Part shown: positions 8,151 to 8,219 of the stretch, piece after piece
Position numbering within the stretch: the stretch's first letter is position 1
Layout: each line of letters opens with the position of its first letter
Assembly (NCBI GenBank): GCA_964637575.1
Contig: CAZWVU010000005.1
Coordinates: 1-55,453 of the forward strand
Direction of reading: 5' to 3'
From: an uncultured Candidatus Saccharibacteria bacterium
GTDB lineage: Bacteria > Patescibacteriota > Minisyncoccia > UBA6257 > WO2-44-18
Length of the DNA stretch: 55,453 bases
Notes under the pieces: model-generated
Database searches by the model: none
What the model was told of the DNA's origin: nothing
The model's input: only the letters and a program-made list of their open reading frames with translations
Program-made: the position numbers and the translations under genes

Positions 8151-8219
8151 GGCCGGCTCCTCCTTCTCCTCGGCAGGACGTCGGGCTTCAATCCTGCCTG
8201 CGGGAAGGAGGAGCCGGCC
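8151..8219 (+). repeat. conserved hairpin element E, copy 1
   Basis: 16-bp perfect outer stem GGCCGGCTCCTCCTTC/GAAGGAGGAGCCGGCC around the conserved core TCCTCG-GCAGGA-CGTCGGGCTTCAA-TCCTGC-CTGCGG. Confidence 0.8.

What the first reader, a model, noticed from the sequence alone, without database searches (positions are those of the whole stretch)
8151..8219. Three copies of a ~60-nt hairpin element with conserved loops and covarying stems, each just after a stop codon
Copies at 8151-8219 (after the 560-aa secreted protein), 17785-17852 (after rpsI) and 47211-47267 (after rplK) share the core TTC-TCCTCG-nCAGGA-CGTCGGGCT(T/A)CAA-TCCTGn-CTGCGG-GAA.

The outer stem differs completely in sequence but stays complementary: GGCCGGCTCCTCCTTC, CTGTTCTTC and ACCCTCCTTC, each with an exact partner. 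The inner stem also covaries (GCAGGA/TCCTGC, ACAGGA/TCCTGT, CCGGGA/TCCCG).

Conserved unpaired nucleotides combined with compensatory stems is the signature of a functional RNA or a protein-recognised structure, not a plain terminator, and only copy 3 has a U-tract. All copies are co-oriented with the upstream gene. The 21-bp perfect hairpin at 11109-11178 has similar arms and may be a fourth, diverged member.
Basis: seen in the sequence. Interest (0 to 1): 0.62.

Follow-up and report, generated by a model that had tools for sequence, protein, structure and literature searches.

The report
Mobile hairpin repeat flanking CPR genes
The three hairpins are real copies of an undescribed 65-70-base folded repeat, present about 30 times in this tiny-genome (Patescibacteria/CPR) bacterium, that comes and goes between related species and sits at gene ends in a preferred direction; what moves it and what it does are unknown.

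Summary
Observation confirmed. Three hairpins share an exact 19-nt core (3 hits against 0.03 expected) and have different, complementary outer stems.

They belong to a genome-wide family of 29 covariance-model hits in 781 kb. One congener has 2-3 copies, and 19 other genomes of the family have none. No Rfam family matches.

The short form consists of the termini plus the apical hairpin of a ~170-nt rod-like long form. That long form lies after rpsI in two congeners, at the site of window copy 2.

Orthologous sites in congeners are mostly empty or hold plain terminators, so copies are gained and lost.

No target-site duplication, RAYT, IS110 or matching parent IS was found.

Orientation is not random. 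The element's 5' side faces the nearer gene boundary in 23 of 27 copies. About 19 lie in sense 0-72 nt after a stop codon. About 8 lie antisense, 8-100 nt before a start codon. None lies in a divergent spacer.

Best reading: a new structure-dependent, non-autonomous repeat (REP/ERIC/MITE-like) with a constrained core. It is possibly co-opted as an RNA 3'-end module. It is not a plain terminator or an sRNA gene.

The hairpin at 11109-11178 is not a member.

The parts
8151..8219 (+). Copy 1 of the short-form hairpin repeat. Outer stem GGCCGGCTCCTCCTTC/GAAGGAGGAGCCGGCC, no U-tract. It lies 28 nt after the stop of the 560-aa gene.
   Evidence: covariance-model hit 8149-8221 at 93.3 bits. G002 and G003 have no element in this spacer.
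17782..17854 (+). Copy 2 of the short form (sub-family B). Outer stem CTTCTGTTCTTC/GAAGAACAGCAG; the inner stem carries a compensated change, CCGGGA/TCCCG. It starts 3 nt after the rpsI stop.
   Evidence: model hit at 78.4 bits. G001 and G002 carry the ~170-nt long form at the same site, and G003 has only a plain terminator.
47211..47267 (+). Copy 3 of the short form (sub-family A). Outer stem ACCCTCCTTC/GAAGGAGGGT, followed by TCGTTTTAG. It lies 52 nt after the rplK stop.
   Evidence: model hit 47203-47275 at 86.3 bits. G002 has a plain terminator at this position, and G001 and G003 have other plain hairpins.
47183..47202 (+). Outer 5' module CTTTCGGGAAACAGAATAAC. It is shared with three other sub-family A copies and with G002 loci, and pairs imperfectly with 47280-47290.
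47280..47290 (+). 3' partner (CTCCGAAGAAA) of the outer module of copy 3.
   Evidence: read directly from the sequence
17873..17896 (+). Canonical intrinsic terminator of the rplM-rpsI unit, 19 nt after copy 2. It shows that copy 2 lies inside the 3' UTR and is not itself the terminator.
6440..8122 (+). 560-aa protein with a C-terminal cupredoxin-like domain. Copy 1 follows its stop codon.
17353..17781 (+). rpsI (ribosomal protein S9). Copy 2 follows its stop codon.
46730..47158 (+). rplK (ribosomal protein L11). Copy 3 follows its stop codon.
11109..11178 (.). Perfect 21-bp hairpin with a 28-nt loop. Not a family member: it is a singleton and shares only a pyrimidine-rich arm (TCGCCAG).

Best explanation
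The three hairpins are copies of a lineage-specific, non-coding, structure-dependent repeat. It spreads, or has recently spread, within the genomes of one Patescibacteria (CPR) genus.

The 65-70-nt short form consists of the termini plus the apical hairpin of an older ~170-nt rod-shaped long form.

The invariant parts are the 13-nt apical loop and the asymmetric internal loop TCCTCG/CTGCGG, which has two invariant G-U pairs. They are most likely the contacts for an unidentified trans-acting protein that recognises the folded single strand, DNA or RNA. The outer stem need only pair, so it drifts with compensation.

Copies land, or survive, in gene-flanking spacers with their 5' side toward the nearer gene. 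Most are therefore transcribed in sense as part of a 3' UTR. Some, such as copy 3 after rplK, occupy the place of the terminator hairpin.

Shown: family membership, structure and covariation, restriction to the genus, gain and loss at orthologous sites, the long/short relationship, the polarity, and the absence of a target-site duplication and of several transposase families.

Inferred: mobility as a process, recognition by a protein, and any host function.
For: - Copy number and range. There are 29 covariance-model hits in G000, including a tandem pair and one degenerate copy. G002 has 2-3. G001, G003 and 17 other genomes of the family have none. Hits to the core in 596 Gb of other genomes are single chance matches, apart from the G002 contig.
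- Long form. Long forms occur in G001 (about 7), G002 (at least 2) and G000 (2). Their consensus fold has 19 of 42 pairs with compensatory changes.
- Gain and loss. The copy at C6:18197 is absent in all three congeners. The sites of C7:32568, C4:40400, C2:17339 and both flanks of the DEAD-box helicase gene are empty in congeners. The G002 copies after fusA and before tuf are absent from G000.
- Decay and nesting. There is a solo 3' half at C8:2306, a 5' end fused to another palindromic element at C4:26480-26780, and a loop-deleted copy at C1:42186.
- Sub-families share stems and flanks, which implies copying of whole units.
- The core is identical in G000 and G002, although their genes are only about 75% identical at the DNA level.
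- A G000 long form is 89% identical to a G001 long form at a non-orthologous locus.
- Polarity. The 5' side is nearer a gene in 23 of 27 copies. All 7 copies in convergent spacers are in sense to the nearer gene. None of 88 divergent spacers holds a copy. The same rule holds for 10 of 11 copies in G001, G002 and the long forms.
- No Rfam family matches.
Against: - No mobilising enzyme was found. Y1/RAYT (PF01797) and IS110 (PF01548) are absent from all four genomes of the genus. rve is absent apart from a weak hit in G003, which lacks the element. The only DDE_Tnp_1 hit is a fragment on a 1.3-kb contig without ends.
- There is no consistent target-site duplication.
- The rpsI-linked long forms of G001 and G002 are 89% identical in their interior, whereas third codon positions next door are 31-58% identical. 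They resemble each other more than their own paralogs (74-80%). That looks like purifying selection on a fixed copy, meaning a host function.
- The strong orientation rule is not expected of a purely selfish DNA palindrome.
Confidence: 0.6

Rival explanations
1. A host-beneficial structured RNA module. Transcribed in sense at the ends of transcription units, it would be bound by a protein or act as a 3'-end stabiliser, terminator or insulator for transcription leaving a gene. That would include divergent transcription from the near-leaderless TGnTATAAT promoters beside the antisense copies. Its spread would be secondary.
For: - Of the copies lying between a stop codon and the next terminator or promoter, about 15 are in sense and 1 is antisense.
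- All 7 copies in convergent spacers are in sense to the nearer gene.
- Copy 3 sits exactly where G002 has the rplK terminator and keeps a U-rich tail. Sub-families A and B carry their own U-tract.
- The rpsI-linked long forms are conserved at 89%, against 31-58% at synonymous positions.
- G-U pairs are invariant in the short and long forms.
Against: - The family is absent from G003 and from all 17 other genomes of the family, so it cannot be essential.
- Most G000 sites are empty in congeners that manage with plain terminators.
- Half of the copies lack a U-tract, and seven have a separate canonical terminator 18-154 nt downstream.
- About 8 copies are antisense, outside any obvious transcript.
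- G-U pairs show no excess over A-C mismatches in the variable stems.
- There is equal conservation (89%) between non-orthologous copies of two species.
Confidence: 0.25
2. Ordinary Rho-independent terminators that merely look alike.
For: The copies follow stop codons. Copy 3 and roughly half of the genome-wide copies have a U-rich tail.
Against: - A 43-nt core is near-identical at about 28 unrelated loci and in a second species.
- The 13-nt loop and the internal loop are atypical of terminators.
- Canonical terminators of the AAAACCGCC...GGCGGTTTT type lie beside many copies.
- Some copies lie antisense upstream of promoters.
Confidence: 0.04
3. Retro-copied RNA hairpins made by the genome's only reverse transcriptase. 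That enzyme belongs to a diversity-generating retroelement (DGR) on contig C3, and one copy sits in the 3' end of its gene.
For: - RVT_1 is found only in G000, the genome in which the short form has expanded.
- The copy at C3:4643-4715 overlaps the end of the reverse-transcriptase reading frame.
Against: - The enzyme is a typical DGR reverse transcriptase with its own template and variable repeats, which differ by 24 adenine-to-N mismatches.
- Element copies show no adenine-specific variation. A57, A58 and A61 are nearly invariant.
- Long forms and 2-3 short copies exist in G001 and G002, which have no reverse transcriptase.
Confidence: 0.04

Closest known systems
ERIC/IRU (RU-1) elements of Enterobacteria
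   Same: - Both are non-coding imperfect palindromes that fold into a long stable hairpin.
- Both lie in transcribed intergenic regions in either orientation.
- Both come in size classes related by internal deletion or insertion, here 65-70 nt against about 170 nt.
- Both are conserved between species far better than their surroundings.
- For both, no transposase is known (PMC2759123; own knowledge of Wilson and Sharp 2006).
   Different: - There is no sequence similarity.
- There are no TA termini and no TA target duplication.
- The host phylum is different (CPR).
- Here the centre is invariant and the outer stem is variable.
- Here there is a strong polarity toward the nearer gene.
REP / REPIN elements mobilised by RAYT (Y1 HUH) transposases
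   Same: - Both are extragenic palindromic repeats with a conserved motif plus compensating stems.
- Neither has a target duplication.
- Both lie mostly at gene 3' ends.
- Both are thought to be recognised as folded single strands (PMC3116915).
   Different: - No RAYT or Y1 gene exists in any of the four genomes of the genus.
- The unit is a single 65-70-nt hairpin, not an inverted doublet of 20-40-nt REPs.
- Copy number is tens, not hundreds.
- The conserved bases are in the loop and internal loop, not in a 5' GTAG-type foot.
Bacterial MITEs such as Correia/NEMIS (Neisseria) and RUP (Streptococcus)
   Same: - All are small, non-autonomous and bounded by inverted repeats.
- All are inserted next to genes, present or absent between relatives, and often co-transcribed.
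- In all, sub-families and truncated copies occur.
   Different: - There is no target-site duplication.
- There is no parent IS with matching ends.
- The terminal inverted repeats vary while the interior is fixed, which is the reverse of a transposase-bound terminal inverted repeat.
Integron attC sites
   Same: Both are recognised, or presumably recognised, as a folded single strand with conserved unpaired bases. Both lie downstream of genes in a fixed direction.
   Different: - attC conserves the outer R/L boxes and varies the centre, whereas here it is the opposite.
- The copies are dispersed next to core genes (rpsI, rplK, fusA, tuf), not in cassette arrays.
- An integron integrase was not searched for.

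Membership tests
REP/REPIN | A RAYT (Y1 HUH transposase, PF01797) gene in the genome, usually flanked by REPs | tested here: not met
   0 hits in G000-G003, while 6 of the 14 control genomes give hits
REP/REPIN | The replicative unit is an inverted doublet of short REPs | tested here: not met
   The copies are single hairpins. The only adjacent pair (C4:21429 and C4:21492) is a direct tandem.
REP/REPIN | Extragenic, palindromic, conserved motif with compensating stem, no target duplication | tested here: met
MITE | Terminal inverted repeats | tested here: met
   The outer stems are 8-17 bp and complementary
MITE | Target-site duplication of fixed length | tested here: not met
   No consistent direct repeat. 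Matches of 6-7 nt are palindromic, shared within a sub-family, or few: 2 against 0.6 expected.
MITE | A parent insertion sequence with the same ends | tested here: inconclusive
   No distant pair of left and right termini exists in G000. There is no IS110 and no rve. One DDE_Tnp_1 fragment lies on the 1.3-kb contig C18, whose ends are not assembled.
ERIC/IRU | TA at the termini and TA duplication at the target | tested here: not met
   The flanks are heterogeneous, often CTC...TCG, and no TA pattern appears. The feature is as stated in PMC2759123.
ERIC/IRU | Long stable hairpin in intergenic regions, with size variants by internal deletion or insertion | tested here: met
Intrinsic terminator | G+C-rich hairpin with a short (3-8 nt) loop, immediately followed by a U-tract | tested here: not met
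   The loop is 13 nt and there is an internal loop. Copy 1 has no U-tract, copy 2 a weak one. Separate canonical terminators lie next to many copies.
Any Rfam family | Score at or above the gathering threshold | tested here: not met
   Only tRNA-Pro is found in the window. Around copy 1 there are only sub-threshold miRNA-like hairpin matches, and the long form gives nothing.

The most novel reading that the evidence does not exclude
A new class of structure-specific mobile element in CPR bacteria that moves without any known transposase family. It would be recognised through its apical and internal loops, inserted (or retained) with fixed polarity at the boundaries of transcription units, and serve as a portable 3'-end or insulator module.
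Probability: 0.2. Interest if true: 0.7.

Novelty: new variant of a known kind. Interest (0 to 1): 0.5.

Why it matters
CPR/Patescibacteria genomes are tiny and streamlined, and I found no paper describing REP-, ERIC- or MITE-like repeats in them.

This family occupies about 0.3% of a 781-kb genome. It has spread in one species and fails the defining tests of every known class: no RAYT, no target duplication, no TA ends.

Three features stand out: an invariant centre, a freely compensating outer stem, and a strict polarity toward the adjacent gene. Together they make it a tractable case for an old question, namely whether bacterial palindromic repeats are selfish DNA, host RNA signals, or both.

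Practically, the repeats confound annotation of terminators and sRNAs, and possibly assembly, in these genomes.

Tried and rejected
- **Insertion of a mobile core into pre-existing terminator loops.** Rejected. Canonical terminators lie intact beside many copies, and outer stems are shared within sub-families at unrelated loci.
- **Target-site duplication.** None is consistent.
- **Orientation set by the replication strand.** 17 copies agree with the sign of GC skew and 11 disagree.
- **G-U against A-C asymmetry as a test for selection on one RNA strand.** About 6 against 10, so no signal.
- **tRNA or tmRNA T-arm resemblance of the loop.** ARAGORN and Rfam find nothing, and near-matches in other genomes are tRNAs or coding sequence.
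- **RAYT, IS110, rve and DDE_Tnp_1 as mobilisers**.
- **The DGR reverse transcriptase as mobiliser.** There is no adenine-specific variation among copies.
- **An outward promoter in the antisense copies.** The spacing to the -10 box varies from 19 to 60 nt (read directly from the sequences).
- **Wider distribution.** Two metagenome scans (short-form core and long-form motif) found nothing. The genome-collection scan gave chance hits plus the G002 contig.
- **The fourth hairpin as a member.** Rejected.

Full report
**1. The observation**

The three hairpins are at the stated places. The 19-nt core GGACGTCGGGCTWCAATCC occurs three times in the window, all on the + strand, against 0.03 expected.

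Each copy is one continuous hairpin with four parts:
- a variable outer stem;
- a conserved 6x6 region, TCCTCG/CTGCGG, which pairs as U-G, C-G, CxC, U-G, CxU, G-C;
- an inner stem, NCAGGA/TCCTGN;
- a 13-nt loop, CGTCGGGCTWCAA.

Predicted folds are strong for copies 1 and 3 and moderate for copy 2. Pfam confirms rpsI (S9), rplK (L11), rplM and a cupredoxin-like C-terminus on the 560-aa protein. The copies begin 28, 3 and 48-52 nt after those stop codons.

**2. A genome-wide family**

The window is contig C5 of a 781-kb, 97%-complete assembly. Its nearest named relative is labelled an uncultured Saccharibacteria/CPR MAG.

A pattern search and a covariance model built from the copies find 29 hits in this genome. 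These include a direct tandem pair (C4:21429 and C4:21492) and a loop-deleted copy (C1:42186).

On 29 aligned copies (28 from this genome, one from G002), 17 of 26 pairs change on both sides. 86.5% of cells pair, against 74.8% after shuffling and 42-56% with slid partners.

The core is nearly invariant while columns 3-12 and 62-71 vary freely. The stems are not unique to each site. They fall into sub-families that also share flanks:
- GCCGGCTCC;
- (A)GCGAACCC;
- ACCCTCC, preceded by a module GGGAAACAGAATAAC;
- GTCTTCTGTTC, followed by a tail TTCGCTTTTATTTT.

Rfam has no matching family.

**3. Distribution**

- Among 21 genomes of the taxonomic family, only G000 (29 hits) and the congener G002 (2-3) have the short form.
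- Sixty relatives at order level give only chance near-matches.
- 596 Gb of reference genomes give about the number of single hits expected by chance, plus the G002 contig.
- Two metagenome scans found nothing.

**4. A long form**

In G001 and G002 a 165-180-nt rod-shaped hairpin lies directly after rpsI, at the site of window copy 2. It has the same termini (…CTTCTCCTCGCCAG … CTGNCTGCGGGAAG…). In G002 its apical hairpin, CCGGAATTCCGTCGGGCTTCAGTTCCGG, carries the short form's loop. G003 has only a plain terminator there.

The long form is itself multi-copy: about 7 in G001, at least 2 in G002 and 2 in G000. It has no Rfam match. Its consensus fold has 19 of 42 pairs with compensatory changes.

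The short form is therefore the termini plus the tip of the long form.

**5. Gain and loss**

- The C6:18197 copy is absent from the orthologous spacer in all three congeners.
- The sites of C7:32568, C4:40400, C2:17339 and both flanks of the DEAD-box helicase gene are empty in congeners.
- At the rplK site (window copy 3), G002 keeps the upstream module GGAAACAGAATAA but has a plain terminator, AAAACGGC-TCCTGCG-GCCGTTTTTT, where G000 has the element. G001 and G003 have other plain hairpins.
- At the copy 1 site, G002 and G003 instead carry a small antisense Cys-rich gene.
- Conversely, the G002 copies after fusA and before the tuf promoter are absent from G000.
- Truncated and nested fragments exist.

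**6. What moves it?**

- No consistent target-site duplication exists.
- No distant pair of termini encloses a gene. The genes bracketed by inverted copies are ordinary: a DEAD-box helicase, membrane proteins and a pilus-region ORF.
- PF01797 (RAYT/IS200) and PF01548 (IS110) are absent from all four genomes of the genus.
- rve gives only a weak hit, in G003, which lacks the element.
- DDE_Tnp_1 hits a fragment filling the 1.3-kb contig C18.
- The only reverse transcriptase in the genus is a DGR enzyme with LGNLTSQ and YADD motifs. Its template and variable repeats differ by 24 adenine-to-N mismatches. One element copy sits in the end of its reading frame.
- The element copies show no adenine-specific variation, and G001 and G002 have elements without a reverse transcriptase. 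I regard that link as coincidental.

**7. Orientation and position**

I used a self-trained ORF caller. The key neighbours were checked by eye or by Pfam.

- Every classifiable copy is intergenic.
- None lies in the 88 divergent spacers. These hold 22% of spacer length, so about 5 copies would be expected.
- Seven copies lie in convergent spacers, each in sense to the nearer gene.
- In co-directional spacers, 9 copies are in sense and lie 1-49 nt after the upstream stop (one at 301 nt).
- In the same spacers, 7 copies are antisense and lie 8-101 nt before the downstream start.

In the element's own frame, the 5' side is the nearer to a gene in 23 of 27 copies (binomial p of about 3e-4). The rule holds for 10 of 11 copies in G001, G002 and the long forms. 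It does not follow GC skew.

The starts next to antisense copies carry TGnTATAAT boxes 6-10 nt from the ATG. Those copies therefore sit just upstream of compact promoters.

Seven sense copies have a separate canonical terminator 18-154 nt downstream. Copy 2's is at 17873-17896. Two sense copies lie after a terminator. About eight have none, of which four carry their own U-rich tail.

**8. Constraint**

The rpsI-linked long forms of G001 and G002 are 89% identical in their interior (119 of 134). By comparison:
- third codon positions of rplM and rpsI are 58% and 31% identical;
- the outer stems are 28-65% identical but still pair;
- their own paralogs are 74-80% identical.

That suggests purifying selection. 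However, a G000 long form is equally (89%) similar to a G001 copy at a non-orthologous locus. Conservation may therefore belong to active element lineages rather than to fixed copies. G-U and A-C mismatches in the variable stems are about equal.

**9. Reading**

The data fit a non-autonomous, structure-dependent repeat whose core is required in cis by an unknown factor. It would spread within one genus and be tolerated, or favoured, in sense orientation inside 3' UTRs.

A primary host RNA function is a serious rival, mainly because of the polarity and the rpsI conservation. Plain terminators and sRNA genes are excluded for practical purposes.

Against known classes:
- it behaves most like ERIC/IRU, with size classes, cross-species conservation and no known enzyme (PMC2759123);
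- it also resembles REP/REPIN, with a folded single strand and no duplication (PMC3116915);
- it fails their defining tests, having no TA ends and no RAYT.

No paper on such repeats in CPR was found.

Earlier agents of this scan reached a similar REP/MITE-like reading on other contigs. Everything stated here was re-derived here. New here are the polarity rule, the rpsI long/short relationship with its conservation figures, the empty sites and the transposase and reverse-transcriptase tests.

**10. Limits**

Gene calls are my own. The congeners are MAGs of 84-95% completeness.

Noticed in passing
G000 contig C3:2227-4740 (outside the window): A complete diversity-generating retroelement. The target gene ends in a variable repeat (~2763-2902). 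The template repeat (~3148-3287) differs from it by 24 adenine-to-N mismatches. The reverse transcriptase has LGNLTSQ and YADD motifs. A short-form hairpin copy (4643-4715, minus strand) lies in the last ~30 codons of the reverse-transcriptase reading frame.
   Followed up: partly
window 8249-8590: A promoter, TTGACT-17-TATAGT (8249-8277), is followed by a ~310-nt leader in front of alaS (8591-10477). Positions 8249-8460 are 79-83% identical in G002 and G003, while the surrounding spacer is not alignable. Rfam finds no match, not even T-box. This may be an undescribed alaS leader RNA.
   Followed up: partly
G001:C3:~23860-24050 (L193); G000:C4:26480-26780: A second, unrelated palindromic repeat family with 20-bp ends, GTGGCAGGCGGCAAGTTCCC...GGGAACTTGCCGCCTGCCAC. 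In G001 it occupies the spacer where G000 has a short-form copy. In G000 a copy is nested into a truncated member of the family studied here.
   Followed up: no
G000 contig C18 (1280 nt): The whole contig is one open frame matching DDE_Tnp_1 (IS4/IS5-type transposase, 31 bits). Its G+C is 58% against 54% for the genome. It may be a collapsed multi-copy IS or a binning stray.
   Followed up: no
G000 C2:17412-17430, C2:65962-65996, C2:138429-138445, C6:18270-18290: Many genes have an extended -10 box (TGnTATAAT-like) only 6-10 nt before the start codon. This suggests leaderless or near-leaderless mRNAs in this organism.
   Followed up: no
window 11109-11178: A perfect 21-bp hairpin with a 28-nt loop lies between a canonical terminator (about 11055-11085) and the gene starting at 11206. 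It is a singleton in this genome and of unknown origin.
   Followed up: partly
G000 C2:23700-23960: Another long structured palindrome of ~160 nt (GCTACCGCCCTGCTCC...GGAGCTGGGGTGGCAGC) lies upstream of the tuf promoter, at the place where G002 has a short-form copy.
   Followed up: no
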